From Danionella cerebrum (Eukaryota), in contig SRMA01025353.1 of assembly GCA_007224835.1 (NCBI GenBank), positions 363,535 to 427,534 on the forward strand: a stretch of DNA of 64,000 nt, read 5' to 3'. Under the pieces are notes generated by a model. The model was not told the DNA's origin and ran no database searches. It saw nothing but the letters and a program-made list of their open reading frames with translations. The position numbers and the translations under genes are program-made. The first letter of the stretch is position 1, and each line of letters starts with the position of its first letter. Shown piece by piece: positions 9,994 through 62,437 of the stretch.

Positions 9994-10005
9994 CGTTTCA
10001 TCCAT
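9994..10005 (-). CDS. nfatc2ip: nfatc2ip first coding exon, 4 codons (MDET), followed by donor GTGAGA
   Basis: ATG at 10005-10003 in a CpG-containing promoter context. The phase-0 donor joins in frame to exon 2. It is the only arrangement I found that keeps the frame, but a 12-nt coding segment needs transcript confirmation. Confidence 0.45.
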
Positions 10006-10009
10006 ATTG

Positions 10010-12621: not shown

Positions 12622-12657
12622 TCTTTTCCTTCTTCATCGATGTCATCTACTTCATAC
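12622..12657 (-). CDS. sgf29: sgf29 coding exon 7, a 36-nt micro-exon (KYEVDDIDEEGKE)
   Basis: Encodes exactly the human KYEVDDIDEEGKE segment. Acceptor tttattag, donor GTACGT. It is required to keep exons 6 and 8 in frame. Confidence 0.8.
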
Positions 12658-12739
12658 CTAATAAAGACAGCAAAACCGTGCAACGTTAGCATTCATATAA
12701 TCACACGCAAAGACTAAAAATCAGAGAACAGATGAATAC

Positions 12740-12886
12740 TTGTTAGTTGAATGGTTGTAGCTGACAACTTCTGCAAGAATCCACTGTTCATCCCCATCCA
12801 CGGCCTTCACACGTGCCGCGACCTTATCCCCCTGCTTAGCTACATAGTCACTGCTCGCTGGTATAGCACCACACAATGGAGGAGGA
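12740..12886 (-). CDS. sgf29: sgf29 coding exon 6 (SPPPLCGAIPASSDYVAKQGDKVAARVKAVDGDEQWILAEVVSYNHSTN); start of the tandem Tudor region
   Basis: Near-identical to human KPPPLCGAIPASGDYVARPGDKVAARVKAVDGDEQWILAEVVSYSHATN. Donor GTATTC. Confidence 0.85.
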
Positions 12887-12973
12887 CTGAAGATGTAGCA
12901 GAATATTAGTCTCAATATTCATTTCCCAAAGCAAACAGGCGATAAATCAAAATAATGTTTGTTGAAAGGCTAC

Positions 12974-13103
12974 CTCTCTCCAGGTTTGCCAATCCATAGT
13001 GGAAGGGTCATGGCTGACTGTTGTAAGAGGGTCATCAGGACACCTCTACGCATGGTCTTTCTGGGTGGGTCAGAGTCACTGTACACTCCAGCCATCCTAG
13101 CCG
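12974..13103 (-). CDS. sgf29: sgf29 coding exon 5 (AARMAGVYSDSDPPRKTMRRGVLMTLLQQSAMTLPLWIGKPGE)
   Basis: Matches human AAKIAGLYNDSEPPRKTMRRGVLMTLLQQSAMTLPLWIGKPGD. Acceptor tctacag, donor GTAGCC. Confidence 0.85.
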
Positions 13104-13169
13104 CTGTAGAGATCGAAAACCATCAAATCAGAATACAATCCGATTTACACAGTAGGAACCAAGACTTAC

Positions 13170-13234
13170 CAATCCGTCTCTCCTCCAAAAGGGACTTAAT
13201 TTCAGCAATCTTGTCAAGTGCCCTTCGAAGTATA
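13170..13234 (-). CDS. sgf29: sgf29 coding exon 4 (SILRRALDKIAEIKSLLEERRI)
   Basis: Matches human NILRKALDKIAEIKSLLEERRI. Acceptor ttcacag, donor GTAAGT. Confidence 0.85.
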
Positions 13235-13857
13235 CTGTGAAAGGGACGTAAATAAGAACGATCTTTATAAAAGATCAAAGCACTTAGACAGGCTAGCAAC
13301 GTAAAATGATTTCTAGTTTTATAAAACAAAATGCTGTAAACAAATACTGCTTTGGCTGCATGTTTGGGGTCCCTGATGGATAAGCATCTATACATTTCTC
13401 AGCATTGAGAAAACCATTAATCCTGAACAAATTTCCAACTCCATTTGCAGAAATGCAGCCACAAACATTCAAGGAACCTCCACCATGCTTCAGTGTTGGC
13501 TACAGACACTTATTATAGCATCGCTCCTTTCTGCTACAGCTAAATGTTTAAAATCGTGAGTCATCAGTGCAGTGTCAGGCCTGCCTTTAAATTTGCACCG
13601 TGCTGTATCTAAGTGAATTAAAGATAAATATGTGATGAATACATTTTTAAAATAATGTTTAACATGATGTGACTCTTCTGGGGGAGCAAAAGAACCACAA
13701 GATGGAGCCACATCATTGGATGCTTATATATTTTAACATTGTACACAAGTAGTAGGAAATGTATTTTCTGTCCTTTTGGCTCATCAAAAACAACAACAAC
13801 AAAAAAACAACAACGATACTCTACAAATTAAATAGATGGACATCTAAATCAAGTTAC

Positions 13858-43837: not shown

Positions 43838-45547
43838 TAATGACATCTTTTGCTTGAGAAATGTTGTTTAGCTCTAATTAATACAAGCTGGTTCCTGCTA
43901 ATCAAAAGAACTTTACTGGACCACTTCCTGCAGGGCTCAACAGCCCGTGGCATGTGTGCCAACTTGGCAAGTGGGGGGATAATCACTCGCGTGTGAGCAC
44001 AAGCAAATGAAGTGAAAGGATGTTATTCAAATAAAGTCCCTCAAGACTTTATTATAAAGCACATTCAAGGTAAAACAACTCGAAGGTCAATGGCCTTTTT
44101 ATTAAGGGAACGTTTGAAACAATCTTAGTTAGTGTGTGGAGTGAACTACTGAGATTTATGGAATGTTTAAGAAAACATTGACAATTGAAATTGACTATAA
44201 AAACAAATCCTTATTTACATAAACAGTGCTCAGCAGAAATGAGTGCACCCCACTACATTTGTTAGAATACCTTTTCTTTCAGATTCAAATTTTTTTTATA
44301 AGATACTATACTACAAAATACTTCCATGGATGTGGGCCATTGATTGCAAACAAGATTGTGCAAACATGCAAAAATGACTATACCGCAATTATAGCCTTAG
44401 GAGAAAAGCCATGCTTAAGACAAGAAAATTCTAAATATAACAGGCGTTCAACCACAGGTGACTCTAATGATCCATTTAAGCGGTGTCCAGCAGACAGATG
44501 ACTAATACTAGGGCATTACTGGGAAAAGAAAAGCCCCTCCAATTTCAGCATTGGCTCCCCATGGAAGAAAAATGTCACAAAATCTGATAAAGAAAATATT
44601 TTCTTTGTTTAAAAAAAAGTAATAATTGTATCCATTTATTCTGAGCACTGGTAGGCTTGAAAAAATGTAAATCTCCTCTGGTAAATTCCTTTTAAGGCAG
44701 AAATTATTTAATGGATGTTTAGCATCCATTAAGGCAACTGCCTTTTCTATAATTAATACTGAATAGGCATCTGGAATCTCTCTATTTTGTCTTATTTCGC
44801 CGCTTCTTTCCAAACCCTGTCTGACATATCTTCCCAATTTGAACTGCAGCAGATCATCAGATACCATTTCTGAATGCATTGAGTTGCTGATTAGGGAATT
44901 GCGTTACCAGCAGTTTGACATGTGTACCTAATAAAGTGGCCGGTGAGTGTATTGTTCCGTGATAAACAGTTAGACCCCAATCATTTATAAAGAGAAATTT
45001 CAGATAAAGCAAACTAAAACTCCTCAGTATTAAATGTTTCAGCCTCGATATAACCTCGAAGAATAAACTTTCTAACACCTTTGATTATCTTTTTATAGCA
45101 GATGTTTAGGGACTGTGAATTTTGTTAGTGTTTTGTAAGGTACATTTTTGTGCTCTGAGAAGAAAACCCATCTCAGTGCAATATTTTCCTTGAGGTAAGG
45201 ACTCTTTAAATAACAGGAAATGTTCAGGTGCTCCTTTGCTAAAAATAAAACTACATTCCAACAGACTATTGGTTAATTTAGAATTGATGGATGAACTTGC
45301 ACCTTGACTGGACATGTTGATTAAGTAACATTTCATCTGAGATGAGATCATCAAGGTTAGGAGCGCCTCTGGTGTTAGCAGGGTTAAGATGCCATAACTA
45401 TTCACAGATTAGCATAGGAGCTCGATTTGAGGTTGTTCGTTCATTTATAGAGGCATTCATTGTAAATCTCAAAACCATGGCTGTAAAGAAGTTGCCAAAT
45501 ACATCCAGAGAATGACTTTATCTCTGTTTCCTTTCTTTGTCTGGCAG

Positions 45548-45607
45548 CTTCCCTCTCCCACAGCCATGGGAGCAGCGCTGCGAGGGATTTCCTGTTACCT
45601 ACGAGAG
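45548..45607 (+). CDS. doc2a: doc2a coding exon 6, a 60-nt linker exon (LPSPTAMGAALRGISCYLRE)
   Basis: Corresponds to the DOC2A-specific linker LASPSSMSAALRGISCYLKE, which DOC2B lacks. Acceptor ctggcag, donor GTAATC. This is the main basis for calling the gene doc2a rather than doc2b. Confidence 0.8.
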
Positions 45608-46189
45608 GTAATCTTCCTTTAACCAGAGGCTTTTTCTCACGCATTCTGTAAACAGCGCAATTATTAAAGTGCAGGTACTGACAGTTCCAGACTCTAGTTA
45701 GCAATTAAGTTTAAAATAGTGCAAGCTTATAATTACTGCCCAATATTTTCATAGTAGGGTCTAAACTCATTTGCATTTCAACAAGAACATAGAGAACAGT
45801 GGCACAGAAGAAATCGATTAATATTTTTATCACCATCCAAATTTGTTCCCATCACGCCAAAGCGCCCCGCAATGAGACAAAGTGGAACGTGAAAAGACCG
45901 TGTGGGAATATGAGCGGAGGACGAGGGCTGGTTAAGGAAAGGGCAGGGACGCGGATGCTCTCTCTGTGCATCTCCTTGTTTTTAACAAATCCCCGCTTTG
46001 TCTGTCAACAAGAACGAATGTGGCATCCATAAATGACGAATTAGATTAGCCAAATGGCAACGTGGCCCCCGGAGAGACGAGATACAATTTGTTCTGTTTA
46101 ACTCGGTGTTGTACAGCACTTAGGGTGCCAAAGCCTCGCGTTGAGGATTTTATAGCAGACGCTGCTGAAGAGAGGCCAAAGAAAAAAAG

Positions 46190-46850
46190 GTGAGGGAGAT
46201 GGAGAGAGAGGGGAGATATGGGGAGAGAGAGATGGAGAAAGAGAATGGGAGGAGAGCAAGAGAGAGAGATAGGAAGAGGGAGAAAGAGAGAGAGAAAGAA
46301 GCAACAAGAGAGGGGGGATATAGGGACAGAGGGAGAGGCAGAGGAGGAGAGAGAGAGAGATGAAGAGAGAGAAATGGGGGAGGGGGGAAGTGATGGAGAG
46401 GGAGAGAGAAGCAGGGGGATATAGGGAGAGAAGCAGAGGGGGAGAGAGAGATATGAGGGGGGCAGAGAGAGGGACATGAAGAAAGGAAGAGGTGGAGAGC
46501 TATATATGGGCCAATATAGGGAGAGAGGGTGAGAGGGAAAGAAAGATAGAGGATATGGGGAGAGAAATGGGAGAGGCAGAGGAATAGAGGGAGTGAGAGA
46601 GAGGGTGAAGAGAGGGGGGGATGAGGGAGAGTGAGAAAGAGAGGGAGAGGGAGGGCAAAAGAGGGAACGAGAAATAGTGAGAGAGTGGATGAGGGGGAGA
46701 GAGATGGGGGAGAGAGGGAGAGCCAGAGAAGGAGGAAGAAGAGGAGAGGGGTGGAGAGAGAAGAGGGAGACAGTGGGAGAGGGGAAAAGGAGAGGGGAGA
46801 GAGAGGGAGAAGGAGAGAGAGAGAAAGCGTTCATCTGATGTAAACATGGC
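46190..46850. repeat. ~650-bp purine-rich (GA/GGA/GAGAGG) low-complexity tract followed by (CT)n at 46925-46980, in doc2a intron 6
   Basis: Almost exclusively G/A on the plus strand. This produces spurious long ORFs on both strands. Confidence 0.9.
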
Positions 46851-46942
46851 TCAATGCTCAAACCAGGAATAGAGATCCTAGCTCACAAATGTTTAATTAG
46901 CACAACAGAAATATATAGATAAAAGTCTTCTCTCTCTCCCCC

Positions 46943-46975
<33 letters not shown>

Positions 46976-49900
46976 ATTTCAAATGACAGAAACTAGTAAA
47001 AAAAGTCATTTATAAGGACAAAAGATGACAGAATATTTTGCCACCAATCTGAAAGTGGCAGAGATTGCAGAAGAGAATAATTACATTGTCAAAGGAAGGG
47101 GAGCGATTACATAATAAGAAAGATGGAGACGGCATTGATGGAAAGATTAGGAAGAGGAGAGAGAGGTTACAGGGTTATGAATGGACAGAGGGTGCCGGAT
47201 GAGTGACAGACTACACACTCTGAGGTCTCCGGAGGAAGAGAACTAGAACTGACAGGGGGAAACCACTGGAGTGCTTAGAGCAACAGCACAGACTGTGTCG
47301 GTTCAGAGCCTGTTGAAATCAAATGATGCTCAAAGGAGAGACGAGGACAAAGATTATAAGTAAAATATTTAATTAGCTGTACCTTTCCAGTGAGAGATTT
47401 AACTCTACAAATGTTCTACTGGACAGGTCTCTTCTTCCTCTCTTCACCTCATTAATCAGATTTTCAAAACGATAATATTATTTTCATTTCATGGGAGACG
47501 TCATGGGAGTTTTTAACAGTGTGCTCAGCCTACAGAGATTAATTGGATTCGCAAGAGTTACCGTAGCACGATTGCAATGCCACAAAAGCAACTATTTAAA
47601 AGGAATGGGCTGTAAATCACAAAACTAAATCATTAGTATTCACTCCGAGCATTCGCGCATGGCTATTGCTTTAACGCTACAAAAACATCGCACCCACCCA
47701 GCTCCTGTGGTGCAAAATTATTCCTTTTCCCATCCCACCCCTCTTTTTATCCCAATTAATTTACTGTTGAGAAAAACTTTACCCTGCTTGGGTTAATGGA
47801 ATAATTGAAGTAGACACTGGCTCCAGATTGACTCCTCCCGAAAGACGTTTAGTAAACTGTATTTAAACTTTGAGCGCCGTCCAATGATAAATAACGAATG
47901 AAGTGGACTTGGAATTTGAAATACGCTCTTTTTGTTATCATTGGAGCAAACTTTCAGTTAAAAGTGTTTTTCATCAAGTTAAAATTTTAAGCAGTAATTA
48001 AAGCTGCAAGCAGCAATCAAAGGGCACTCGCACATCCGGCTCTATCACCTCTCGGTGGTCTGTTTTTTGCAATATGCACTACGACCAATCCCTATTTAGG
48101 ATATGTATTCAAGCAAGAACTGAACACTACAGGCAAAATTATGTCACGACCCACAGGTGGCACTGTGAATGAGAATATTTTTCTGCCCAATATCCTTTTT
48201 TTCTGGCTGCAGCGAAAGAGGAGAGACAGGAAGCTATGTGGAGAGAAAGATTGCAAATAGACGTCAAGCTCAGGATTCGAACCAACATCGCCTTGTACAA
48301 CCGCACACATACATATCCTGAGCGCCAGCCACTAAGTCTTTGGCTAATATTCTTGTCGAAATTTGCTAAAAGGAGCATATTATGAATGTTTCCTGTGGAA
48401 TCATAAATGAGATTGTACATTGTAGAACTTAAATTTGGGACTGATCACACACTGTATAGCTGAGGTATAACAGCACTCTTTATGGTGAAATGTTGACTTT
48501 TAACGGAAAAAAAAAATCTATTTCAAAAAAGCTTAGCAATTTAATATCCCATTTACCTTTAGCTAAGACTCTTGAAGTTTGGAGGTGAACGGATACAATC
48601 CCTAGGAGGAATAAATTTAAAATATTAAAAATGAAAAAACTTGCTCCAACATATTATTTTGTAGGTATTAGTCCATGTGGTCCGCGTTCCAAATGTCGAA
48701 AACAGTATTAAACAGCATAAAATGGGATATTTCATACTGTAATATAACTGATACTGTAGGTTGCTATTTAGTTTTGTTCAGGCATGGACTCTTAACATGC
48801 CTGGCTGACTCGAACCCGATCGGACATTGCATGGCTGAGTTATTAACAATATTTTGAATATTGTTGGCCACAAAAAACAATTTTAACATCCCGTAAAACG
48901 TAAGACTGGTGGAGTTCGGAGGTGAACAGATAAACTCTCTAGGTACGACACCCCTCTTGGGTTTGTCCCTGTATCTCTCTTGGCAACCCGAGATGGCATG
49001 TATAGATGTTGTAAATAAAGCAAAATAGCACCTGATGCCACATATGTCTTCTCAGAGAACGGGAGAATGGGGTCAACCCTCTAAAGAGAGATGAACAAAT
49101 ACTTTTGGGGTATGTGCAATTAAAAGAGCAGCATGGTATCAATTTTATTTCATATTCAACAGAAAAAGATGTACATGTGTTTAGAAAGCCATCATTGTTT
49201 TTTTAGATGAACCTCTGCTATTGAAAAGCCAGCACTGTTGAATACAGCTGGGGTTTGTGACAATAAGAAGGGGGAGAAACACGCCCCAGAGGCAAAAGAA
49301 GGATGAGAGCATCTCAGACAGAGCTATTGGCGCAACAGTCACTTTGTTTATTTCAAGCTTTTGATTTCGGTGTCATGACTGGCACACATTCTGGTGGTGG
49401 TTGATGACGGGTGCCATGCCATCTGCCTGCTAATCACACAAATCTAAATATGAAAGCTGTGCCACGGTGTGTGCGCTGTCTCCTGGACACCTGTTTACCT
49501 GCTGGATGGAAACACCCTTTCATTATCATTAGCGAGGGCTGATTACCGGGGTCATTAGTGTCGAGCGCAAGCAGAAGCAGAAGGAATCCAAATTTAACAT
49601 TTAAGCCTCACAAAATACACTAAGCCCATTCAGAAATGCCACTGGCTTTTTTAATTAGGCGAAGAAACTTGGGCTGTCAGAGGAAAGCTTCTGCTACGCT
49701 GCCATCTGCTTGTTTGCAGCTAATTTGGTGCTCAAATTTATTCTATACTCCAGCATAAACCTCTCATCTCGTAATAGTTTATGATGCTATTGAGACATTT
49801 CTGAAAGAGCTTGTGGCACATAAAAATCAGATTAATGTCATTTCTTCCGAAAGTCTGAAATGTATTTATTTAAACAAAGTCGACAATGGCGACTGACCTT

Positions 49901-50694
49901 AAGTGTCTGTCTTTCTAGCATTGAACCGCTAATCATCACTTATGGGTTTTAACGCAGATGTTGCCTTTCTCTTTGTCCTCCCACAATCACTCAAGGAACT
50001 TTGTCTCATGCTCCTTCCCTCTCCAAAAGCATAGATCCTCATCTAATTACATTATTGAAACATCACCTTTGCCAGCAAACAGGTTTGGCTTGGCATGATT
50101 CGCACTAATGGGCATACAGATGCTCGCAGCCCTAGCACAAAAGCACACACAAACACAAACAGAAAGGTCTATAAGGCTCAAGGTAAAAAACTAGAAATAA
50201 CAAGGAAGAAAACAAACAGAGGGAGAGAGACACGGAGATGATTACCCTATTGATCCTGTCCTTTCGCTTGTTATGCCGGAGAAAGAGACACTGAGAAGAC
50301 AGACAGTTCAAAGGAAAGGAATACAGGAGTAGAGTATGACAGGAAGTCACAAATCTCACTGCTCTTGATGAGAATTTGCCATGCTGAGATATTAACCTTC
50401 ACTCATAAATGCGAGGGAACTCACTTCCAGGGTTAATGTACGGTCATGAAAATGACGAATGTGATTTCCTCTCTATTATACGACTACGGTTAATCAAAGA
50501 AATGTGATAACTGTGTAGCTTAGTAGGGATTTCCCTAAAACATCACAAGATATTTCAAAAAGAGCTGTTTTTGCAGAGGGAAAAACGGAATTACAAATTG
50601 TAGTTAAATAATTTCCTCAATTTCATAGACTTAAACTGCAAGGACATTAATATTTTAATAGAATTTTTGCATTAATAGACTGTTAAATGATCTG

Positions 50695-50975
50695 CAAGCT
50701 CTGGATTCAGGTTTCCCTACTTAGTTCCCCTACCTCGAGTTTCCACACCTAGTTCCCCTACCTCAAGTTTCCACACCTAGCTCCTCTACCTCAAGTTTCC
50801 ACACCTAGCTCCTCTACCTCGAGTTTCCACACCTAGTTCCCCTACCTCAAGTTTCCACACCTACTTCCCCTACCTCGAGTTTCCACACCTAGTTCCCCTA
50901 CCTCAAGTTTCCACACCTAGCTCCTCTACCTCGAGTTTCCACACCTACTTCCCCTACCTCGAGTTTCCACACCTA
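50695..50975. repeat. Minisatellite: ~28-29-bp unit (cctacctcRagtttccacacctaSYtcc) x ~9
   Basis: Directly visible tandem copies with minor variants (cgag/caag, tagtt/tagct/tactt). Confidence 0.9.
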
Positions 50976-50989
50976 GTTGCATTGTTGTT

Positions 50990-51300
50990 TTGTTGAGCTT
51001 GCGACCCACTACTTCACTGGAGCTTGATTTAAATTATTTTGTGGTTGGTTCCTTTCTTTCCCAGAACATTGAGTTGATTTTTCGATTCCACAATGTTGGG
51101 TTAATTTTTAGATCCTATAATATTGGGTTGTTCCGTTTGATCCCCCAACATTGTCTTGTTCTTTCAGTTCGGCACCATTGGGTTGATTTTTCAATCTTGT
51201 AATATTGGCTTGTTCTTTTGATTCTGCAACATTGAGATCTTCCTTTTGATCTTGCAACTTTGGGCGATTCATTTCAATCCCAATTTCTGAAGATTATGCC
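50990..51300. repeat. Second tandem array: ~45-bp degenerate unit (tYgattYYacaaYattgRgttRttYYtttt)
   Basis: About seven diverged copies, immediately adjacent to the first minisatellite. Confidence 0.7.
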
Positions 51301-52909
51301 ATACTGGGTTTCACAGGAAGAAGAAACTAACACAAATGAGTGCTCTTGGTGTTTCCGCCACCATTAAATCAATCTCAACTTTGATTCTTTCTATTTTAAT
51401 CTATTAGCTCCTAACTATAATAGCAATTAACACTTTATTCTCTACAGATGCTTTATGAAAAATTTCTCGTCAATATTGTTGCTCTCACTATGTGTTGCAT
51501 ATTCATCAGTATTCGCAGCATGCATTAATAATGTCATTTAAATAAGCTTTTCCCTACCCTTCCAAATTTGTGAGTGAGAGAGAGCGAGTTAGCGAGAGTG
51601 TGTCTGTCTGTGTGTGTGTGTGAATGCACGGCACCACATCATAAAATTATGTCTCATTACATCTCCAGATCTCAGAAATCCTTAAGAGGCTGTGCTTAGA
51701 TCTTCCCGGTTCCTCATTTATAAGCCATTGCACCAGATCTGAGGCTAAACAGGCCAAAGAGGAAAGGATATTTCTGTTTTTTTAGTAAATGAGTTGTAAT
51801 GGTGCATTACAGAAGTCTAAACATGCTACAAAGGATTCTATAATGTGTATTACAAGAAGTATTAGTGTCAAAATGTAATATTTTTGCAATTCACGAAACA
51901 GATTGTTGCTTAATGCTAACATGATAAACATGTAGCCAGCTGTTTAGCATTCACCCATCGTATCCAGAGGGAATCCTTGTCATTGGATTATCTTTTACCC
52001 TGTCACATTTAATAGAGATGATCTATTAAAGCTTGCTACAGCTCTGTATTGGTATCCCTTAACAAACAGATCAGTTCCTTTACTGCTGTTGTCACTTTGA
52101 TAAAGCTTTTACACTAAAATCTACAAAATAATGATTCTCTTGGAAATATTCAAGGAGATTTCCAGAACAATGTGAATTTGTTGATTCTAGAGAAACCGGG
52201 GGTAAACAAAGCGTGATGGGGCATTCGAATATGTGCCTCATGTAGCTTTAAATCATAAACCTCAACACTTTCCACAGATTCTAGTATTTCCACCAGGAAC
52301 AGTCTTCGCAACAAAAACTTAAATGTTGTAGCAGAGGGAGACTCTGTTAAAATCATTTCAAAGAAACGGAAATATCAAACACATTAATGATTCGGAAGGC
52401 AAACCATGATAGATCCTGGCCCTTTTCTGATGTTGACAGATATGAAGTCCTTAAATACCTTTAACATTTGAAACCATGTAAACATGCCACAGGAAATTGA
52501 ATCATCAGTGTTTTGCTAGGATTTCTGCTGGTGGTTTTGTGATTCACAATCTCTTTTATCACCCTCATACCAAGCCTCCTCTAGAAGACCATTTCTGGAA
52601 AGTGTATTTTATGCAGCTGTCTCATTTCTGTCATTTCCATTCGCTGTTAGCATATTTTTGGTAATTCATTGAACGATTCATAACTGTTCAAAAATCCATT
52701 GTAATGTGATGTTTTCAAAATGTGCCTTTTACAGCTATAGCTCTAAAAGAAACATGCTTTTGGGATGTTGCTGTGTACCCTGTAAAAAGTGAGATGTTAT
52801 AGTGATTAGTGATATGATCTTTTCAGTCATTTAAATTTCAATATTTTATTTTTTAGTGATATTGTGCAAAATTGTCTAATATTAACACTTTGATAAAAGA
52901 TATTAATAA

Positions 52910-53107
<198 letters not shown>

Positions 53108-54102
53108 TGAGATTTCTGTAATTGAAAAGCATTTAGATGCTGCATAAAGGTAGTAGCGCTTTGGCTTCTTTAGCGTTCCAAAATTAAGAGAACAACAGTG
53201 CAAACGAGTAGCTGTAAATCTAAATGGCTTAAGTTTGTACACAAACTTTGATGTTGGCTTGTAAATTGCTGTTAAAGTCATGTCTCAGTGACTTTCCTAA
53301 GATGAGATAGAGATATGAAAAATTGGTTGCTATGGCAAACAGTCCGGTTGCTATGGAGAGGTCAATGACTTCATATACGGTCCCCATATCACTGTGAGTG
53401 TAACAAAAAAATCCACATATCTTTGTCATTTACCAAAACTTGGTTGCTAGGGTAAATTACTTGGTTGCTAGGGAGTTGATCTCATAAAAATTAGTTTATT
53501 ACTATGATTAACAAAAAACGACCCCGCTACAATGTTTCATAATTTATTTTCAATCATTATTTTAAGTCAATGGTAAATCTTTAAGCCCTTTTAGATCCTA
53601 GGGTACTTTGCACATTTTTTTGTCTAAAGAACATAATACAAGTAACAATATTTCACAATGCAAACATAATTAATGGTATAAGGAGGCAAAAAAATACTGA
53701 CGTCCTACGACTTTCTTCTGATGTGTCCCTGCACCTCACTGTCTCTTATCTAATCTTTCATTATTTCTCACATCATGTATTAAAATAAACACTTCTAAAC
53801 AGTTCTGCCTCTCCAGGCAAAATGGCATAAGAACAGACAGGACCCCCACCCACGCTCACATCCCTTCCAGTCACTTCTCTCTCTCCGTCTATTCCTTTCA
53901 GACACACATTTGCGTTCTCTCTTTTCCTCAGGATCAAAGCCATATTCTAACTGTGTGTCTTGAGGGAGGGTGCGTGAGCGTTAACAGCAGCACATAAAGC
54001 AAATCTCATTTTTATGGAAGCCAGTTGGAAATCCCCACAAAAGCCGAAAAGCGTGGCACAGATGTGTCCGAAGTGTGTTTCGTACTGTCTTGCTCTTACT
54101 AG

Positions 54103-54240
<138 letters not shown>

Positions 54241-55710
54241 TGAGTGTTAATGAGATGTCTGCTCCAATATTTCTGTGCTCACTTCACATTCCCAAAAGAC
54301 GTAAAGGCTCTTTTATCTTTCATCATTTCCATAATGTGCCTGTTTCACTTGGACACTGCATGCATTTTTTTTTTCCGCCTTCTCCTCCAACCCGTCTGTC
54401 TCACGCGGTCTCTGTCATGTGGGTGGCAGGCGAGCAGCAGAAAGGCTAAGTGTTCTGTTTCATTCACTCAGAAGTAATAGAGACCCAGGCCGGTCATATA
54501 ATTACTCCTCGCCTCAGATTGAAGCTTTCTCACATAGGGCTATCTGCTTAAAAGCAGGTTTGCCCTCCGCTCCATAGGAGTCCTCTCACAAAAATCATGA
54601 TTTCATATCATATCAAACTGCTCATGAGGGGGCCAACATTACCGGAAGGAACAAGAGAGGGAGCTCTTCATATAAAGCTTCTCTATGTTTTATATTTAGA
54701 AATTCTTCCAGTTTCATTCCTGTGGCTCCATTTGGCTTTAGGGGAGCAAGGCTGGTAAAGGTCAGATGAAGAAGTTCCTGGAGGGTTTATTATTGGTTTA
54801 TTATTATGTGTACAGTACTGTAGGCACGTATTTATATTCAGGAATAATATGTTGTTTAATTTATTTTGTTAAATAAGGGATTTTGTAGGATTATAGTTGG
54901 GGGTTAAATGAGCAACAAGTTCTGCCAAACAGATGCTTTTCTAGTCGTGTAACAGTTTACAAAAACTACAGTTTTGGTTCGTTTTCAATTAAGCAATAAT
55001 AATAATAATAATAATAATACACAAAATTCCTTATTTTTTAAATAGAAATACAAGCAAATTAACCCTTTGATGTATGGAGCCTTTTTAAGCCATTTTATTA
55101 TTTTTGCTCCAATAAATTACTTTTAAATGATTTTTTGTGGCAGTGCTTCTTTTTTTACAAATTTGTTTTTATTACTTTACACTATAATTCCACAAAGAAC
55201 ATGCAATACCATCAGGGAGGTGTATGGGAGCCCGCAAATGCATGACCCGAAACACACAGCATGGCCACAGAGATCTCAACATCATTGAGTGTTTCTGAGG
55301 TTGTGTGAGGAAGAGATGTGAGAAAGCTGCATTCCACAACAAATCTGTGCTTAGTTCTCAAAGATGGAACAACTTTAACCAGAGTTTGTTCAAATACCAT
55401 GTACAAGTGTATCAAGGAAACCCTATTTAGTGTGAACACTTATCAAAATATTAAAAAAAAAACAGCAGAATTTGTCATTTTGTAAGCTTTTTTTTTTTTG
55501 CACGGTACATTACACGGAAGAAACAGGGTTTCATATTCTGATCATTCCCCAGCTTGCTTCTGAGTTCTCACAGTGATCCATTTGAAAAAAAACCTGTTTG
55601 ACGTGTCCTTTGAAATGAACTTTGGGGGTGGTGGGGGGGAGGGGGTGGATTGAGGGCTGGGGGCATCGTTCTTCATCTTTCAAAATGAGCTGAAATTGAT
55701 GATCCACTGA

Positions 55711-55983
<273 letters not shown>

Positions 55984-56072
55984 TAGTTGCATTCAATGAC
56001 CTATGCTAAGCTACGCTAAAAGTGTCATCCACAAATACAAAAAGTTATGTGTTCCTTTAAAAGTTTAGTATA

Positions 56073-56520
56073 CTATATACAGTTGTGCTCATAGGCCATT
56101 TTTTCAGAAGAAGTGGAAAGTGGGGGATTTTGTTGAAAACAACAAACATTTCTGCTACAACTGCCAGAAAAATTGTATGGGATGCAAAGAAAAACCCACA
56201 AATAACTTCAGCTGGGCTAAATACAGGGCTGTCTAAAAATGTGATGTGGCTTTTTAAAGGAGAAAAATAAGGAGACACTTGAAGAAAAATGGGTTGCATG
56301 GTCGAGTTGCCAGAAAATAGCCATTACTACACAAATTCCACAAAGAACGCTGCTTATAAAACGCCAAACGGCTCCAAGACAAGCTCCAGACTTCTGGAAC
56401 ATGGAACGATGAGACCAAAATTTTACTTTTTGTCAACAATCATAAACTCTACATTGTTGGTCAAGTGACTGCTCCGGGTACAGTGCCGTAAACCAAGGAC
56501 AATGCTAACTTTTAGTTGTA
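56073..56520 (+). mobile_element. Tc1-like element 5' part (terminal repeat tacagttgtgctcatagg plus the transposase N-terminal coding remnant) in doc2a intron 9
   Basis: Terminal repeat motif plus translated fragments resembling the Tc1 transposase N-terminal region (…TAGLNTGLSKNVMW…, …HGTMRPKFYFLSTIINS…). Confidence 0.55.
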
Positions 56521-56771
56521 TCGGCAGTAATGGTTAGGCATTACGGATACTCAAACATTTACATACTCCAAAATATCTGTACATTAGGGGCTAGGGTTCA
56601 CTCCTATCATCAAACATTGGGTTGTTATAGAGTTAGGAGACGTGATCAATCTGAACCCGCCCCTTTCTCTGCAGGCTCCAATCAGACTCCTCTATATAAA
56701 CAGTATTTGGTAATGTAATACTTTTTGTTAAAAGTCAGATAATGAACTGAAAACCCTCTCTTGAATGCCAG

Positions 56772-56908
56772 GTGGTGTGTGCCTGAGCTGTCACGTTCAA
56801 GGAGATGCCCTTCGCCACTGGATGGACTGTTTGAGGAACAAAGGTCAGAAGGTTGAACGCTGGCACATTCTAGCCAATGAGCTGCCTCAGACCACCTGCC
56901 ACGACTGA
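56772..56908 (+). CDS. doc2a: doc2a terminal coding exon (GGVCLSCHVQGDALRHWMDCLRNKGQKVERWHILANELPQTTCHD, stop TGA)
   Basis: Matches the DOC2 C-terminus ([39 protein letters not shown]...SD). Acceptor tgccag. The ten exons total 422 codons. Confidence 0.85.
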
Positions 56909-59900
56909 GGAAGAAGCCAGGAAATCAAACAGGATAGGTTAATGGCTTTGATTGGTATGAGGTGAACAGAGATAATTATACGAGCTAACTAGGGGCCAAG
57001 TGTTCGGAAGTAAATTACACACTTGGAAGGTGGAGGATGGGCTGAGTCAGCGTCACTCTGCAAGGGTTCCACACACTTCTCTTTCACTCACTGCTGCACG
57101 TTTTCTACACATTTTGTAAAGTTGGGGTCAATTTCACTCGAATGGAATCTTGTGTAGCACTGTTTTGGACTGCAATGTATCTCAATGTTCAGTGTTTCCG
57201 TAATGCTTGCAGCCACGAAACGTCTTAACCAAACGCGGGGGGTGCATGTGAGCTAACTGAAAAACATTTACTGCATCATCACGACAGCATGGGAAAAGTG
57301 GTATTACTCTCAGTGTTGTCAAATGAGGAGGACCTGATTCCCATCCATTTTGTAGCATGATTTCAATATGGCGGTTTTCAATTTCCTTTAAAAACACGAG
57401 TTTTATGGACATGCTACACTTTGATATCGCATACGTTGTTACTTAATATATTTTTGGGACCAACTGTTTATATGTGCCACGTACAAGGACTATCTGGAGT
57501 GCGTCTGCATGCGTTTGCGAGTGTCATCTGGTTGTTTTGTACCCCAAAAAAGTGCTGTATTCTTGAGGAATTTGTGATTTGCATTTATATGAAGTGCTCA
57601 TGTACAAATTGGAAATACATTTGAAATGCATTGCTCTTTACGATGTGCGTGAGTTTCCTGTATTCTCTTCAAACGAACATGGATTAGAATTGGAATTGCC
57701 ATGCAAGCAACACATTTATTGTGATCCCCAACGTCATTTGAGCACTCTTCACTGGAATAACATCATTTACAGAGGCTTCCAAGTGGGAACGGTCCCAGTT
57801 CTCTATTAACCTGCCAGATAACATCAGGTTTTTTTGCTTCTGTAGATTTTACCAGACATGTTGTATAATTTGGCCTTTTATTTTAAAATGCTAATGGTCT
57901 GACTCGTCTATGCTAAGCTACACTAAAACAACTTTCAATCTAAATATTTCTAGTTGTGCCTTAATTAGCGTGTTTTGTTTGGAAGCGCCAAACTAGCACA
58001 TTTGACATTGTTGTCCTGTATTTCAGTGATTAATTACTCAAATTGCCACTAGTCCTGGATGCTGTGGTCCTCAACATTGCCTTTCCTTTTTTAAAAACAG
58101 TTGTCATCATTGAAATTGACAGGAAAGTCCAGTTGATCTATTGTGGCTCGAGATATGGCCAGATGTCTACCGCCATCTTCTTATGACATGTGTGTTTCAT
58201 ACTGTGGGGAACAGTATTTATGACAGGGGCTACGGTCCACTGGACATTGTCACAAGAAATCTGATTTAAAATAAGTTTTGAAATGTTAATGAGAAGATTA
58301 CTTACATTTGTCTCTTTGGTCGTGCTGGCGGCCGTCTTACCCCTTTGTTTCGAAGTATAGCTCCAGACATCTTTTGGGACTAAGATCCATACAGTTGTTC
58401 TTCTATCAAAAGAGAATTGGGACACCCCTTCACCTCATATAGGTAAGGATAAGAGGTAGAACCGACTCAATCTTTTTATCCTGGTTTACTGGGGCATTTA
58501 TGAGATTTACAAGATGTATTTAAATGGTATATGAGTAAAGATTTTAATTTAACAGCTCATTATGCTGAAGAAAATGTCTTTTTCTCATTCTTCTGTTACG
58601 TTTAGAGCATTCATAATGAGTAAAGAGTCTTGAGAAAAATATATGTGACAGCTTTATTACTAATTTAATGCTGGAATTGTATGCATCAAGTTAAATATTA
58701 AAATACAGCATGGGAATATAGTAATAATCAATTCACGCTGTCTGGATGTTTGAAGGGAGGGAATGAGTAAATAACAATTATAAAAATGGCTCCTTATAAA
58801 TAAATCATGAAAGACTAGAAAAGTTATGCAAAATAACATGTAGAGTAATTTGGGGGATTGGCGTCTGATAAAAATAGTTCTTTACTGCTCAACATTGCCA
58901 CCAAGTGGAAATATACTGTATTTTTCCAGGAAATGGACACAGGTGGTCTGAACACAAGGTTCAAAATGCTTTTGAACAGCATTTCCTTTCTTAGACTTAG
59001 ACTGCTTTTAGCACCTCATCCAGATTGGTACAAAACCAGAACTGGTGAGGGCAGGGGTTTTACACTTTTCCTAACTTCAAATTTCAGCACTTTCAATGTG
59101 CATTTTCATGCTTTTCTAACACAAGACGAACGTGGTAAGTTACATTTATGTGGTCTGTATGCTTTTTCACATTAAATCCATTATTTTTCACACAATATGA
59201 CATTTATTGTTTATTGACATTTGGATTTATCTGTCTGGTGTTAAGAGAAATTTATCATTTTTATCAAACAATTTCATCAAACACACAAGCACAATGAAAG
59301 GCAACAAAAAACTCAACTGAACCAAATATAGTGCCAAGTAAATCCATGGTGAGGAGCTGAAGATCATTTTTGTATATGTTGCTGGTTCACATTTTGGGCA
59401 TAATTTATATTTTTCGTCTTCCAGCCAACATGCATTAAAACAAAAACTTACTGGCATGTTTTTATCACCGGCTCCATTCCAGGGGCTCACGTCCAGTGAA
59501 AGATTCCATTACTGCAGCCACCTGTGTAGTCTCGAGTTATTATGCGCAAAAACTTTACCCAAACCAAAAACTGATTAAGAAAACAAATTATTATGAAAGC
59601 AACACAATTGAAAAACAAGAATTAATTGTGTGCTATTAGTGCATGAGGAAGCTACGTGGTTGTAGAGTTTTCTGCTTTTTGACCTGTCAGTGAGCTCAAC
59701 AACTGACCAGTCAGTGATCAACAGGAAGTTATCATGCTTTTTCTTTCCAATGAAGTGTCAGCGTGGGCAGATTAAGATGGAAAAGCCCAGAAAGTTGAGT
59801 CAAGCCGTTACAAAACAGGTTGATGGAATGGTGCATACTTGTCAACAGTATTCTCTGATTGGTTTGGAAATGGACTTCTAGGGCTGAAATTTTACATGCA

Positions 59901-60276
59901 TTGCTGGCAAAAGATGAGAAAACACTTCAGACAAATAAATCCATTTTATTCATCGGGTAAAGGATAACACTACAACTGATTTGTGTCTCCTGTTGGTCTG
60001 ATGACAGGGCACACAACACAAGAATGTGATTTATTTCAGCAACACCATTAAACACTGCTCTCCAAGGGTTTTCCGAGGACATGTCACTTACACTCTCTCA
60101 ATATCTGCCCACAGGCGACTCCCAGCATGCCACGTTTACGACATCTCACCCAGACAGCACCACTTATTTGACTCTGTGATCGAGCGCGGTAATTCTGCAC
60201 CCATGCGAAAGAATCAACAGGGATTCCTTCACCGGAATCTCTCCATTAGGTCTTTTAAGCCGGAAACAGCCCTCTC

Positions 60277-61148
60277 TCACCTATTATGAACGCGCATGTG
60301 ATTTCGACATGTGTAGGCGTCCTTGAAGCTGCGCCCACACACCGGACAGCCATAGAGACGTAACTGCAGATGCACGCGGCTGTGGTTCCTCAGAGTCCCG
60401 TCGTTGTTGAAGCGTTTGCCGCATTGGTCACAAACAAACGGCTTCTCGCCGGTGTGAATAACCATGTGCACTTTCAAACGTGAGTAGTGAGGGAACAGCT
60501 TTCCACACTGCGGGCATACATGTGTCCCAGGACGTTTGTGTCTTCCTCGTCCTCTAGTCTGCCTCGTTTCCTTGCTGAACGCTGGGTGATGTAGGGAATC
60601 GATATTAGCAAACTCCAGTTGACAGCTATTGGCGGTGGTGTCGTTTCTGAGCTTGGTGGTTTGATGACCCATGTTGTGGTTGACTTGAGGTACATTTGTT
60701 TTTGGGCTCGTCGTCCTCCTCAAATTTGGACCGACTTTGCTAATTGATTCCTGCTTTTGACTCATGTGCTTAGTAGACGGAAGAGCGGTGGAATTGGATG
60801 ATATCGGAGCTTTAGGATCACAAATACGGCTTATTTCAGAAGTTGCTGGTAATGGACTGCAGGAGGAGGTCTTGGTATCATTGGCTGGAGAGGGGAGGGG
60901 TTCACTAGGCTCTGTTTTAACTCCGCATTGAATCTCATTTAAACTGGAGGTCTCAAAGTCTTTATCGATTTGAGCCAGTGCATTTGGTAAACCGATGTCT
61001 GATTCATTTACTATGAGCACGTGGCTTGAGATCCCCTCCACCTTTGAGATCATACTCTGTTCATTTTGTGCTTGGTTCTGATAGAAATCTGTAGCCTCCG
61101 TGTTGATGTTCCAGTTTAGTCGAGGAGGTGAAGATGTCGGAGCAGGTC
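60277..61148 (-). CDS. C2H2 zinc-finger gene, coding exon 2: ~200-aa Ser/Thr/Pro/Asn-rich linker followed by three C2H2 fingers (CPQCGKLFPHYSRLKVHMVIHTGEKPF, CDQCGKRFNNDGTLRNHSRVH, CPVCGRSFKDAYTCRNHMRVH)
   Basis: Long ORF on the minus strand joined in phase to exon 1 via acceptor ttttctag at 61149. Canonical C-x2-C-x12-H-x3-H repeats with TGEKP linkers. Confidence 0.75.
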
Positions 61149-62253
61149 CTAGAAAATATGATTGATTTGAGAAAATCAGACGAATAAAACTGTACGCAAG
61201 CAAATTGAAAAAGTATCATAAGTAGCCAAAGTGTCAGCAACAAGACCCAAGGTAGTTATACTGTATTAACACATTTCAGCAGATAGGGGTTTTCAAGTTG
61301 TTCAAGCTCTTCTTAAGAGGCCAAAGAAACGGGCAACATTGCGGATTGTAGGATCAGTGGATGACCAATGAACCTTACTTCAGCAGATGAAAGATTACCA
61401 TCCTTTAAAATTGGAAGTTGTTCAGCAGTGCCATCATATCAGATCTGGCAGAAACCAGTGTATAGCCATCTACTGTCTGGAAGTCAGGCCAGACTTTATC
61501 TTCATGGAAGAGTTGTGTCCAAAAAGCTTCTAAAACGGGAACAAGGCCAAGCAACTCAAGTATGTTGGTAAACAGAACTGTCGATCAGACAACTGGCTTC
61601 CAAATTTGAAATATTTGATGTAGCAGGAGGCTGGATAATGTGTCTGCAAAGTGGAGGTTCCTTAAACGTTTGGGGCTGCATTTCTGCAAATGCCGTTTGA
61701 GAATTGGTCAGGATTATTGTTGTTCTCAATGGTGGGAAATCCAGTCAGTTATTTATCTATCATGCATTGCCATCAAGAGGCATATGATTGGCCATAAATG
61801 TATTGAGCCGTAGGACAATGACCGCAAACACACATGCAGTTAGGATTAAGTATTGGAGGTACATTTTGGACAGTTCTGTACTTGGGACAAAAAAACTGAA
61901 TTCTTTTTTAAATATATATGGCAGAACCCACGGTCATTTTGTGTATATATAGTGTATTCCTAAACCAAATATTTGCTCTAAAATGTACACGTTTTTAACC
62001 CTTAATTCGTTCACAGTTTGTAAAGTATTGAAGTAAAAAAATGACCTAAAAAAAGGCCCCAGAACAGAGAAAACGGTATAATCATTTTTGTACGTTCCAA
62101 TATAACATATTAGTTTGAGCCGTACGTTATTACAATGTTGAATAGAACCGTTACGACCGTTACGCCTCCAGTGATCACCATGGTAACACTAATGCGAGAG
62201 CAGAAAGTAAACAACTGTATTTAAGGCACGTATTTATTCAAAAGATGGTGTAC

Positions 62254-62437
62254 CGATTGAGTTCAGGATTTTCTCAACCTCCTTGAGTCTCCGTCTGAGG
62301 AAGTCGTTGTCTTTCTGCGCGCAGTCTAGCTCTTTCTCGTACTGCAGGACCGTCCCGCCGACCATCTCCACGATCTCTTCTAGCACCGCCATCAAGCGCC
62401 CCGTCACGAACGTGTTGATGACCTCAAGCTTCGTCAT
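62254..62437 (-). CDS. C2H2 zinc-finger gene, coding exon 1. Encodes a conserved teleost ZNF N-terminal domain (MTKLEVINTFVTGRLMAVLEEIVEMVGGTVLQYEKELDCAQKDNDFLRRRLKEVEKILNSI)
   Basis: ATG at 62437-62435, donor GTACAC in phase 1. The motif F-x3-RL-x4-EEI...EYE-x-E-x(8)-LL/RRL resembles the N-terminal ZNF-associated domain shared by large fish-specific ZNF families (FiNZ-like). I infer the family from memory of the motif, not from a search. Confidence 0.6.

What the first reader, a model, noticed from the sequence alone, without database searches (positions are those of the whole stretch)
60277..62437. Compact two-exon C2H2 ZNF gene with a fish-type N-terminal domain and only three fingers
Exon 1 encodes a ~60-aa domain (FVTGRLMAVLEEIVEMVGGTVLQYEKELDCAQKDNDFLRRRL) that I recognise as the N-terminal ZNF-associated domain of expanded teleost ZNF families (FiNZ-like). 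It is not a KRAB, SCAN or BTB domain. Exon 2 has a ~200-aa low-complexity S/T/P/N-rich linker and just three C-terminal fingers. Members of these families usually carry longer finger arrays and sit in clusters. A solitary 3-finger copy immediately downstream of doc2a may be an old, conserved member rather than a recent TE-controlling expansion.
Basis: partly seen in the sequence, partly recalled or inferred. Interest (0 to 1): 0.5.

Follow-up and report, generated by a model that had tools for sequence, protein, structure and literature searches.

The report
Conserved fish zinc-finger gene, not FiNZ

Summary
The gene is real. On the minus strand, exon 1 (62437-62254) and exon 2 (61148-60277) splice in frame. 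They give a 351-aa protein (not 369) identical to GenBank 'hypothetical protein DNTS_017833' of Danionella cerebrum.

The protein has three parts:
- a 58-residue N-terminal helix (pLDDT 96);
- a ~206-aa disordered linker, 40% S/T/P/N, with one conserved VKTEP motif;
- three C2H2 fingers.

Full-length orthologues exist across the teleost lineages sampled here, with the same phase-1 intron and the same convergent DOC2-family neighbour. A zebrafish transcript contig uses the orthologous junction. The fingers are under strong purifying selection (dN/dS 0.06).

The N-terminal domain matches 776 protein clusters. All 29 named clusters I looked up are teleost, and the domain is mostly N-terminal to 3-7 fingers. 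It is not FiNZ: reciprocal profile tests against real cyprinid FiNZ sequences (MAFIKEE...) fail, and FiNZ is 28 aa, Glu-rich and cyprinid-only. Pfam and PDB hold nothing similar.

Three fingers is a derived state: eels and mormyrids have 5, salmon, pike and smelt have 4, and carps plus Denticeps have 3. The gene is not truly solitary either. In zebrafish, bream and salmon the upstream neighbour starts with a paralogous copy of the domain.

Verdict: an ordinary conserved transcription factor carrying a mildly interesting uncharacterised domain.

The parts
62254..62437 (-). Exon 1, coding part (184 nt, phase 1). ATG at 62437. Encodes aa 1-61 plus the first base of codon 62.
   Evidence: The same 184-nt coding exon and the same donor context (CAATCG|GTACAC) occur in Megalobrama. 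Zebrafish has the same exon-1 end.
62258..62437 (-). N-terminal helical domain (aa 1-60) of the unnamed teleost ZNF-associated family. Predicted as one amphipathic helix spanning aa 3-60.
   Evidence: The profile finds 776 clusters. AF2 gives a helix at aa 3-60 with pLDDT 96 and 82-93 in the full-length model. Hydrophobic periodicity is 3.4-3.7 residues. It is the only copy in the window.
61149..62253 (-). Intron (1105 nt), GT...AG.
   Evidence: Intron position and phase are conserved in Megalobrama (1569 nt) and O. nerka (327 nt). In zebrafish the intron is spliced out in transcript contig L005.
60277..61148 (-). Exon 2, coding part, including the stop TGA at 60279-60277.
60517..61148 (-). 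Disordered S/T/P/N-rich linker (aa 62-272), ending in the basic RGRGRHKRPG patch just before finger 1.
   Evidence: pLDDT below 50 for aa 62-267. Composition. dN/dS 0.31.
60910..60921 (-). VKTE (aa 138-141), part of G/D-[VI]-K-x-E-P. This is the only strongly conserved island in the linker and fits the SUMO-acceptor consensus psi-K-x-E.
   Evidence: K139, E141 and P142 are invariant in 14 orthologues from Cypriniformes to Osmeriformes. Motif match. The SUMO role is inference.
60454..60516 (-). C2H2 finger 1 (aa 273-293), CPQCGKLFPHYSRLKVHMVIH.
60370..60432 (-). C2H2 finger 2 (aa 301-321), CDQCGKRFNNDGTLRNHSRVH. This is the signature finger of the orthologue group.
60286..60348 (-). C2H2 finger 3 (aa 329-349), CPVCGRSFKDAYTCRNHMRVH. 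It is preceded by an atypical LQLRLY linker instead of TGEKPY.
59988..60276 (-). Probable 3' UTR. AATAAA motifs lie at 60035-60030 and, just beyond the conserved stretch, at 59950-59945.
   Evidence: The blastn alignment with Megalobrama continues past the stop to 59988. The motifs were read. Assignment as a UTR is inference.
45515..56908 (+). Convergent neighbour: a DOC2-family double-C2 gene. Only its conserved exons and blocks were mapped. The last coding exon ends near 56905.
   Evidence: Collinear blastn blocks with Megalobrama. Assembled C2B exons match PDB 4ldc (DOC2B C2B) at E = 9.7e-65. A C2-domain gene sits in the same position in Megalobrama and O. nerka.

Best explanation
This is a functional, ancient, single-copy-per-lineage teleost transcription-factor gene, annotated in D. 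cerebrum as hypothetical protein DNTS_017833.

Shown:
- It has a two-exon structure.
- Exon 1 encodes a ~58-residue amphipathic helix that belongs to a large, unnamed family of N-terminal domains of teleost zinc-finger proteins. That family is distinct from FiNZ, KRAB, SCAN, BTB and ZAD.
- Exon 2 encodes a disordered linker and three C2H2 fingers. Their helix residues are almost unchanged between carps and salmonids.

Inferred mechanism:
- The three fingers read one fixed short DNA motif (roughly 9-10 bp) at host regulatory sites, not at fast-changing transposons.
- The long N-terminal helix cannot be stable alone. It probably pairs as a coiled coil, either with itself or with the paralogous domains encoded by its upstream neighbours. 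Pairing would double the DNA-reading surface or recruit a cofactor.
- The conserved VKTEP site in the linker is a likely SUMO acceptor that tunes, probably represses, transcriptional output.

The three-finger array is a truncated descendant of a five-finger ancestor.
For: Gene reality:
- The spliced ORF is 100% identical to a deposited protein.
- Intron position and phase are conserved in three other species.
- The zebrafish Logan contig L005 encodes the whole orthologue contiguously and aligns to the genome as two blocks that break at the same exon-1 end.

Conservation:
- Full-length orthologues occur in Cypriniformes, and in Salmoniformes, Esociformes and Osmeriformes.
- Orthologues carrying the signature fingers also occur in Anguilliformes, Osteoglossiformes and Clupeiformes.
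- Synteny with a convergent C2/DOC2 gene holds in Megalobrama and O. nerka.

Selection:
- dN/dS between Danionella and Megalobrama is 0.059 in the fingers, 0.35 in the N-domain and 0.31 in the linker.

N-domain:
- The profile finds 776 clusters at E <= 1e-3.
- 171 of 203 carriers have it at the N-terminus, usually ahead of 3-7 fingers.
- AF2 predicts a single helix at aa 3-60, with pLDDT 96.
- Hydrophobic periodicity is 3.4-3.7 residues, and core-like positions are near-invariant: L15, I22, N44, L47 and L51.
- The only Pfam echoes are sub-threshold hits to leucine-zipper and coiled-coil families (TSC22, GBR2_CC, Cnn_1N).

Not FiNZ.
Against: - No Danionella RNA evidence was available. Transcript support comes from zebrafish and a loach-like species only.
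- Danionella carries Gly at position 13, where 87% of 186 family members have Glu. It also has a shorter linker than other cyprinids (351 aa versus 371-398). Some relaxation in this lineage therefore cannot be excluded.
- Oligomerisation, SUMOylation, repression and the DNA target are all inferred. No multimer model or binding data could be produced.
- A conserved GG/GD pair at aa 27-28 could break the helix into a hairpin in vivo, although AF2 draws it as continuous.
- The N-domain dN/dS of 0.35 indicates only moderate constraint.
Confidence: 0.8

Rival explanations
1. One reading: the N-terminal domain is FiNZ or FiNZ-like, so the gene is an old offshoot of the cyprinid FiNZ-ZNF family that silences transposons at zygotic genome activation.
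For: - It has the same two-exon layout, with a domain exon followed by a finger exon, as described for FiNZ-ZNFs.
- The host is a cyprinoid fish.
Against: - FiNZ is 28 aa, Glu-rich and unique to cyprinids, and starts MAFIKEE (morpholino decoded).
- The N-domain HMM against 120 real FiNZ sequences gives a best E of 0.069 (6 bits).
- The FiNZ HMM against the orthologues gives E > 2.6 with negative bit scores, while its positive controls score 1e-23 and 8e-16. hhalign probability is 0.2%.
- The domain occurs in eels, mormyrids, salmonids, gobies and others.
- The fingers are under strong purifying selection (dN/dS 0.059), not the positive selection reported for FiNZ-ZNFs.
Confidence: 0.03
2. The N-domain is the actinopterygian 'KRAB-like' domain proposed by Carotti and colleagues. 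It would work by recruiting TRIM33 and NuRD to silence transposons.
For: - KRAB-like ZNFs are described as widespread in ray-finned fish, with an N-terminal domain plus C-terminal fingers and proteins of 434-487 aa.
- An Anguilla family member is auto-named 'zinc finger protein with KRAB and SCAN domains 5-like'.
Against: - No KRAB-like sequence or accession could be retrieved for a test.
- Pfam KRAB does not hit the domain even at E <= 10.
- The residue landmarks given in the paper (E33, L37, D42, hydrophobic residues at 25, 27 and 48) do not line up with the family consensus in any register I tried.
- KRAB is a two-helix bundle, whereas this domain is predicted as one 58-residue helix.
Confidence: 0.1
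3. The Danionella copy is a decaying or non-functional gene in a miniaturised, compact genome. It keeps an open frame only by recent descent.
For: - It has a unique E13G change at a residue that is Glu in 87% of the family.
- It is the shortest protein among the cyprinoid orthologues.
- An exact-sequence look-up found no transcript or gene record for this product.
Against: - The 351-codon frame is intact, with canonical GT/AG sites.
- dN/dS against Megalobrama is 0.26 overall and 0.059 in the fingers, at dS ~0.8.
- All zinc ligands and helix residues are intact.
- The flanking UTR-like sequence is conserved.
Confidence: 0.05

Closest known systems
FiNZ-ZNF genes of cyprinids (Wells et al. 2023, PMC10547256)
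   Same: - Two-exon layout: a short N-terminal domain exon followed by one exon carrying C2H2 fingers.
- Found in a cyprinoid genome.
- The N-domain has no Pfam family.
   Different: - There is no sequence similarity in reciprocal profile tests.
- The domain is ~58 aa, versus 28 aa for FiNZ.
- The first 28 residues hold 4 Glu, versus 9 in the FiNZ consensus (read).
- The domain is pan-teleost, not cyprinid-only.
- There are 3 conserved fingers under purifying selection, not long, fast-evolving arrays.
- The gene is syntenic with DOC2, not part of a large cluster.
SCAN-, BTB- and ZAD-type zinc-finger proteins (N-terminal oligomerisation domains)
   Same: The likely logic is the same: an N-terminal protein-protein interaction module, a disordered linker and C-terminal C2H2 fingers. 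ZAD and SCAN are also lineage-restricted.
   Different: - No Pfam hit to SCAN, BTB or ZAD.
- The predicted fold is a single long helix, not a globular domain.
- Oligomerisation has not been demonstrated here.
Leucine-zipper dimerisation segments (e.g. the TSC-22 family, PF01166)
   Same: - The second half of the domain (aa ~30-58) has 3.4-3.5-residue hydrophobic periodicity.
- It has a near-invariant Asn44 flanked by Leu47 and Leu51.
- 4 of 12 orthologue domains give sub-threshold TSC22 hits, best E = 6e-4.
   Different: - Hits are below Pfam thresholds and scattered over several unrelated coiled-coil families, so this is resemblance and not homology.
- DNA binding here is by C2H2 fingers, not by a basic region.
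Paralogues sharing the N-domain next to the gene: a BED-finger gene (~325-331 aa) and a long dispersed-finger ZNF (D. cerebrum DNTS_017849; zebrafish XP_073792797)
   Same: - The N-terminal domain is the same (E ~1e-21 to the profile).
- The BED paralogue lies on the same strand immediately upstream in zebrafish and Megalobrama; in O. nerka the upstream carrier is a 458-aa C2H2 ZNF instead.
- In Danionella they lie on the same contig.
   Different: They have different C-terminal DNA-binding modules: a BED finger, or 7-14 dispersed C2H2 fingers in proteins of up to ~2,700 aa.

Membership tests
C2H2 zinc-finger transcription factors | C-x2-C-x12-H-x3-H fingers that score above the Pfam gathering thresholds | tested here: met
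   zf-C2H2 scores 49.9 bits (cut-off 25.2) and zf-H2C2_2 scores 54 bits (cut-off 40), with three stretches. The regex finds three fingers. AF2 predicts beta-beta-alpha units.
FiNZ-ZNF (Wells 2023) | N-terminal 28-aa FiNZ sequence (consensus MAFIKEESEDMKIEETFRVKHEDTEEQT) | tested here: not met
   The gene starts MTKLEVIN. The FiNZ HMM against the orthologues gives E > 2.6. The N-domain HMM against 120 FiNZ sequences gives a best E of 0.069. hhalign probability is 0.2%.
FiNZ-ZNF (Wells 2023) | Restricted to cyprinid/cypriniform fish | tested here: not met
   The domain and the orthologues occur in Anguilliformes, Osteoglossiformes, Clupeiformes, Salmoniformes, Esociformes, Osmeriformes and acanthomorphs.
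FiNZ-ZNF (Wells 2023) | Domain exon upstream of a single exon encoding the finger array | tested here: met
   The gene has two coding exons. This layout is also shared with KRAB-ZNFs, so it is not diagnostic.
FiNZ-ZNF (Wells 2023) | Long, rapidly evolving finger arrays (the paper's ZNF screen kept arrays of 5 or more fingers) under positive selection, in large clusters | tested here: not met
   The gene has three fingers with dN/dS 0.059. The window holds a single copy. The neighbour is a DOC2 gene.
KRAB / SCAN / BTB / ZAD zinc-finger subfamilies | Pfam-detectable KRAB (PF01352), SCAN (PF02023), BTB (PF00651) or ZAD (PF07776) domain | tested here: not met
   None of these appears even at E <= 10 for the full protein or the N-terminal 62 aa, nor at E <= 1 for 12 orthologue N-domains.
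Actinopterygian 'KRAB-like' ZNFs (Carotti et al. 2022/2024) | N-terminal region alignable to the published KRAB-like domain, and TRIM33 interaction | not testable with these tools
   No sequence or accession is held in the papers or supplements. The landmark residues quoted do not fit the family consensus, but this check is weak.
Unnamed teleost ZNF N-terminal helical domain family (defined here by profile A2) | Significant match to the ~60-aa profile at the protein N-terminus, encoded by its own exon, followed by DNA-binding fingers | tested here: met
   The window copy scores E = 9.2e-35, but the profile includes it. Independent paralogues score 1e-20 to 1e-22. There are 776 clusters in total, and 171 of 203 carriers have the domain at the N-terminus.
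DOC2-linked orthologue group (signature finger FNNDGTL[RK]NH) | Signature fingers 1-3, the N-domain, the phase-1 intron after the domain, and a convergent DOC2/C2 neighbour | tested here: met
   Signature fingers. Intron. Synteny in Megalobrama and O. nerka.

The most novel reading that the evidence does not exclude
The N-terminal 58-residue helix would be an undescribed, teleost-wide zinc-finger-associated oligomerisation or effector domain. It would be a fish counterpart of SCAN, ZAD or BTB, with no Pfam or PDB entry and no hit in a search of the paper library for six peptide strings from the domain. It would let C2H2, BED and long dispersed-finger proteins pair through a coiled coil. The small conserved array next to DOC2 (long ZNF, BED gene, 3-finger ZNF) would be its ancestral core, whose members heterodimerise.
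Probability: 0.35. Interest if true: 0.5.

Novelty: new member of a known kind. Interest (0 to 1): 0.27.

Why it matters
The result matters mostly as a correction: not every fish ZNF N-terminal domain is FiNZ. This gene shows the opposite evolutionary mode from FiNZ-ZNFs. It is single-copy, syntenic and constrained in its fingers, so it should not be counted among transposon-arms-race ZNFs.

The by-product has modest value. The work defines a large family (776 clusters at 50% identity) of teleost proteins that share an uncatalogued long-helix N-terminal domain. It also finds a conserved paralogue array that offers a simple system (three genes, one domain) to test whether the domain mediates dimerisation or cofactor recruitment in zebrafish.

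Tried and rejected
- The exact-product look-up for the Danionella protein found nothing on record, so there is no Danionella context or transcript.
- Searching the N-domain alignment in the word-indexed database returned only short fragments and little taxonomy. Names had to come from the cluster look-ups.
- The Wells 2023 supplements that are held contain only BED files, with no FiNZ sequence. I instead decoded the published morpholino and fetched real FiNZ proteins using a consensus seeded from memory.
- The 'KRAB-like' sequences of Carotti et al. could not be obtained. One search was a malformed query. One search returned only transcript tables.
- The PDB profile search of the N-domain gave only non-significant coiled-coil hits, best E = 0.078.
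- A Foldseek search of the single-helix model against PDB gave zero matches, as expected for a lone helix.
- A literature search for peptide strings from the domain returned no papers. A keyword search for a named teleost ZNF-associated domain found only FiNZ papers. The killifish preprint was irrelevant.
- The Asd-4 Pfam hit (E = 0.028, 15 bits versus a cut-off of 29) was rejected as coiled-coil noise. Other members hit unrelated coiled-coil families instead.
- I considered and rejected a pseudogene reading.
- A tetrapod orthologue was not found. All non-teleost hits cover only the generic finger region, 15-29% of the query.
Full report
**1. Observation**

Reading the minus strand and splicing 62437-62254 to 61148-60277 gives a 1,056-nt frame and a 351-aa product. 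The donor is CAATCG|GTACAC, with GT at 62253-62252. The acceptor is ...TTTTCTAG|GA, with AG at 61150-61149, so exon 2 begins at 61148. An in-frame stop lies upstream of the ATG.

The product is 100% identical over its full length to 'hypothetical protein DNTS_017833 [Danionella cerebrum]'. This identifies the source genome and shows that the deposited annotation uses the same junction.

Pfam finds only C2H2 fingers, at aa 271-349, all above the gathering thresholds. It finds nothing significant in the first 62 aa. The linker (aa 62-268) is 39.6% S+T+P+N.

**2. Evidence that the gene is real, conserved and expressed in relatives**

- Orthologues in Otomorpha:
  - Full-length homologues at 100% query coverage occur across Cyprinoidei at 53-59% identity. 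They include zebrafish XP_005163891 and XP_021327049.
  - Suckers and loaches match at 45-50%.
- Orthologues in other lineages: Salmoniformes, Esociformes and Osmeriformes match at 30-35%.
- Synteny with Megalobrama:
  - Exon 1, exon 2 with ~290 nt beyond the stop, and a long series of blocks through 57.7-45.5 kb align collinearly.
  - These blocks belong to a convergent C2-domain gene.
- Identity of the neighbour: C2B exons assembled from the window match PDB 4ldc (DOC2B C2B) at 9.7e-65. The neighbour is therefore a DOC2-family gene. The PDB comparison does not separate doc2a from doc2b.
- Synteny with salmon: O. nerka shows the same ZNF-then-convergent-C2 arrangement.
- Intron conservation:
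  - The intron has the same position and phase. Exon-1 coding length is 184 nt in Danionella, Megalobrama and zebrafish, and 193 nt in O. nerka, all phase 1.
  - The Danionella and Megalobrama donor contexts are identical.
- Transcript evidence in zebrafish:
  - A 1,304-bp Logan contig (SRR10813977) encodes the entire 371-aa zebrafish orthologue without interruption.
  - It aligns to the zebrafish chromosome as two blocks, 9933-10184 and 12296-13351. The ~2.1-kb intron is spliced out exactly at the orthologous exon-1 end.
- Transcript evidence in a second species: a similar intron-less contig exists for a loach-like species.
- Selection: Nei-Gojobori dN/dS for Danionella versus Megalobrama is 0.059 for the fingers, 0.35 for the N-domain, 0.31 for the linker and 0.26 overall, at dS ~0.8.

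The pseudogene reading is therefore rejected. No Danionella RNA could be examined.

**3. Anatomy**

- AF2 on the 14-orthologue alignment predicts:
  - a confident helix at aa 3-60 (pLDDT 82-93);
  - disorder at aa 62-267;
  - three beta-beta-alpha fingers.
- The N-domain alone is predicted as one uninterrupted helix at aa 3-60, with mean pLDDT 96.
- Across 186 family instances, hydrophobicity has a 3.6-3.7-residue period in the first half and a 3.4-3.5-residue period in the second half.
- The family consensus is MTKLQlLNayLTERLMaAVeEILeVVGgTVlEYeEETaRtrRENEsLRRRLRE.
- Near-invariant residues include L15, I22, T29, Y33, N44, L47 and L51.
- The only Pfam echoes are sub-threshold hits to leucine-zipper or coiled-coil families (TSC22, GBR2_CC, Cnn_1N, Asd-4).
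- A PDB profile search finds nothing significant, and Foldseek finds nothing.
- In the linker, the one strongly conserved island is G/D-[VI]-K-T/S/V-E-P (aa 137-142 here). K139, E141 and P142 are invariant. It fits the psi-K-x-E SUMO consensus. That consensus comes from established knowledge, and its use here is inference.
- The finger helices are essentially fixed from carps to salmonids.

**4. The N-terminal domain is a widespread teleost ZNF domain, but not FiNZ**

*The family.*

- A profile of 12 orthologue N-domains, run against 1.84 billion representatives, finds 776 proteins at E <= 1e-3 and 186 at E <= 1e-10.
- Of the 203 carriers held locally, 171 have the domain at the very N-terminus.
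- Most carriers of 250 aa or more have 3-7 C2H2 fingers, and 34 have tandem copies.
- All 29 named clusters among the 30 I looked up are teleost. They include moray and freshwater eels, mormyrids, Denticeps, milkfish, gymnotiforms, a characin and zebrafish. They also include salmonids, galaxiids, opah, pipefishes, grouper, flounder, gobies and dragonets.

*FiNZ as published.*

- FiNZ is defined in Wells et al. 2023 as a 28-aa, Glu-rich N-terminal sequence unique to cyprinids.
- The published translation-blocking morpholino CTCTCCTCTTTAATAAACGCCATCT reverse-complements to ...ATG GCG TTT ATT AAA GAG GAG, which encodes MAFIKEE.
- A query seeded with a FiNZ consensus from memory retrieved 211 proteins. 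Every hit that carried a species name was from a cyprinid.
- Among the 120 listed hits, the commonest starts were MAFIKEE (31) and MKIEETF (21).

*The test.*

- The N-domain HMM against these FiNZ sequences gives a best E of 0.069 (6 bits).
- A FiNZ HMM against the orthologues gives E > 2.6 with negative scores.
- The same FiNZ HMM scores two true FiNZ-ZNFs, caught incidentally, at 1e-23 and 8e-16.
- hhalign probability is 0.2%.

The FiNZ label fails on sequence, length, composition and taxonomic range.

**5. Finger number and 'solitary' status**

Within the orthologue group, defined by the signature finger FNNDGTL[RK]NH, finger number varies by lineage:

| Lineage | Fingers |
|---|---|
| Moray eel and mormyrids | 5 |
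| Salmonids, pikes and smelts | 4 |
| Cypriniformes and the clupeiform Denticeps | 3 |

In the three-finger lineages the protein ends directly after finger 3. Three fingers is therefore an old, derived truncation of a longer array. It is probably otomorph-wide and is not a Danionella peculiarity.

The gene is also not isolated:

- The immediately upstream, same-strand neighbour begins with a paralogous N-domain in zebrafish (a zf-BED gene of 328 aa), Megalobrama (zf-BED, 331 aa) and O. nerka (a 458-aa ZNF).
- In D. cerebrum, locus DNTS_017849 lies on the same 523,711-bp contig. It encodes a BED-type protein and a long ZNF, both carrying the domain.
- These paralogues lie outside the window, which holds only one copy of the domain.

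**6. Mechanism**

Shown: the gene structure, the conservation, the helix prediction and the constraint on the fingers.

Inferred:
- The three invariant fingers bind one fixed short motif at host regulatory DNA.
- The 58-residue amphipathic helix forms a coiled coil, homotypic or with the neighbouring paralogues. This would increase DNA-binding valency or recruit a cofactor.
- The VKTEP lysine is SUMO-modified and modulates activity, probably repression.

Confidence:
- That the gene is a conserved functional TF gene with a non-FiNZ domain: about 0.9.
- For the specific coiled-coil and SUMO mechanism: about 0.4.

**7. Comparison and novelty**

The gene works like SCAN-, BTB- or ZAD-type ZNFs, which combine an N-terminal interaction module with fingers. 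It fails the Pfam membership tests for each of those families, and for FiNZ and KRAB. Whether it equals the 'KRAB-like' domain of Carotti et al. could not be tested, because no sequence is held.

The gene itself is already deposited as a hypothetical protein, and its orthologues carry arbitrary 'ZNF xxx-like' names. What is possibly new is the recognition of the N-domain family and of the DOC2-linked paralogue array.

Overall this is an ordinary conserved transcription-factor gene with a modestly interesting uncharacterised domain.

Noticed in passing
window 46192-46824 (+ strand): A ~630-bp polypurine (GA/GGGAGA-type) tract. GC skew reaches 0.89 and AT skew 0.73. It lies between blocks conserved with Megalobrama, upstream of or within the 5' part of the DOC2-family gene. 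A (TC)n run follows at 46929-46975.
   Followed up: partly
window 62399-62401 (codon 13, GGG): Danionella has Gly at N-domain position 13. The other 13 aligned orthologues have Glu, and 87% of 186 family instances have Glu; the remainder are mostly Lys or Gln. Danionella also has the shortest linker among the cyprinoid orthologues (351 aa versus 371-398).
   Followed up: partly
L004 143-310, L001 3003-3179, L002 3357-3503 (upstream neighbours in zebrafish, Megalobrama and O. nerka); D. cerebrum DNTS_017849, outside the window: A conserved small array of paralogues shares the N-domain but has different DNA-binding modules. It comprises a BED-finger gene and a long dispersed-finger ZNF of up to ~2,700 aa in other otophysans. 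It lies upstream of the 3-finger gene.
   Followed up: partly
P0027 (Cyprinus carpio UniRef model, 242 aa): This carp gene model joins exon 1 of the upstream BED-paralogue (MAKLDRLNTFMTERLMAAVKEIIFTVGRTV) to this gene's finger exon. It is either a read-through or chimeric transcript, or an annotation artefact.
   Followed up: no
window 56759-57672: Two non-coding blocks are 75-84% identical to Megalobrama between the DOC2 stop (~56905) and the ZNF 3' end. They are probably DOC2 3' UTR or shared regulatory sequence.
   Followed up: no
P0068, P0072, P0099 (moray eel, Metynnis and goby models): Some species have proteins or gene models with 4-5 tandem copies of the N-domain and no fingers. These suggest local tandem amplification of the domain exon, or fused gene models.
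   Followed up: no
P0212 (67-aa Logan fragment): This fragment is hit by both the N-domain profile (2e-12) and, weakly, the FiNZ profile (6e-5). It is the only sequence seen that touches both profiles. I did not inspect it.
   Followed up: no
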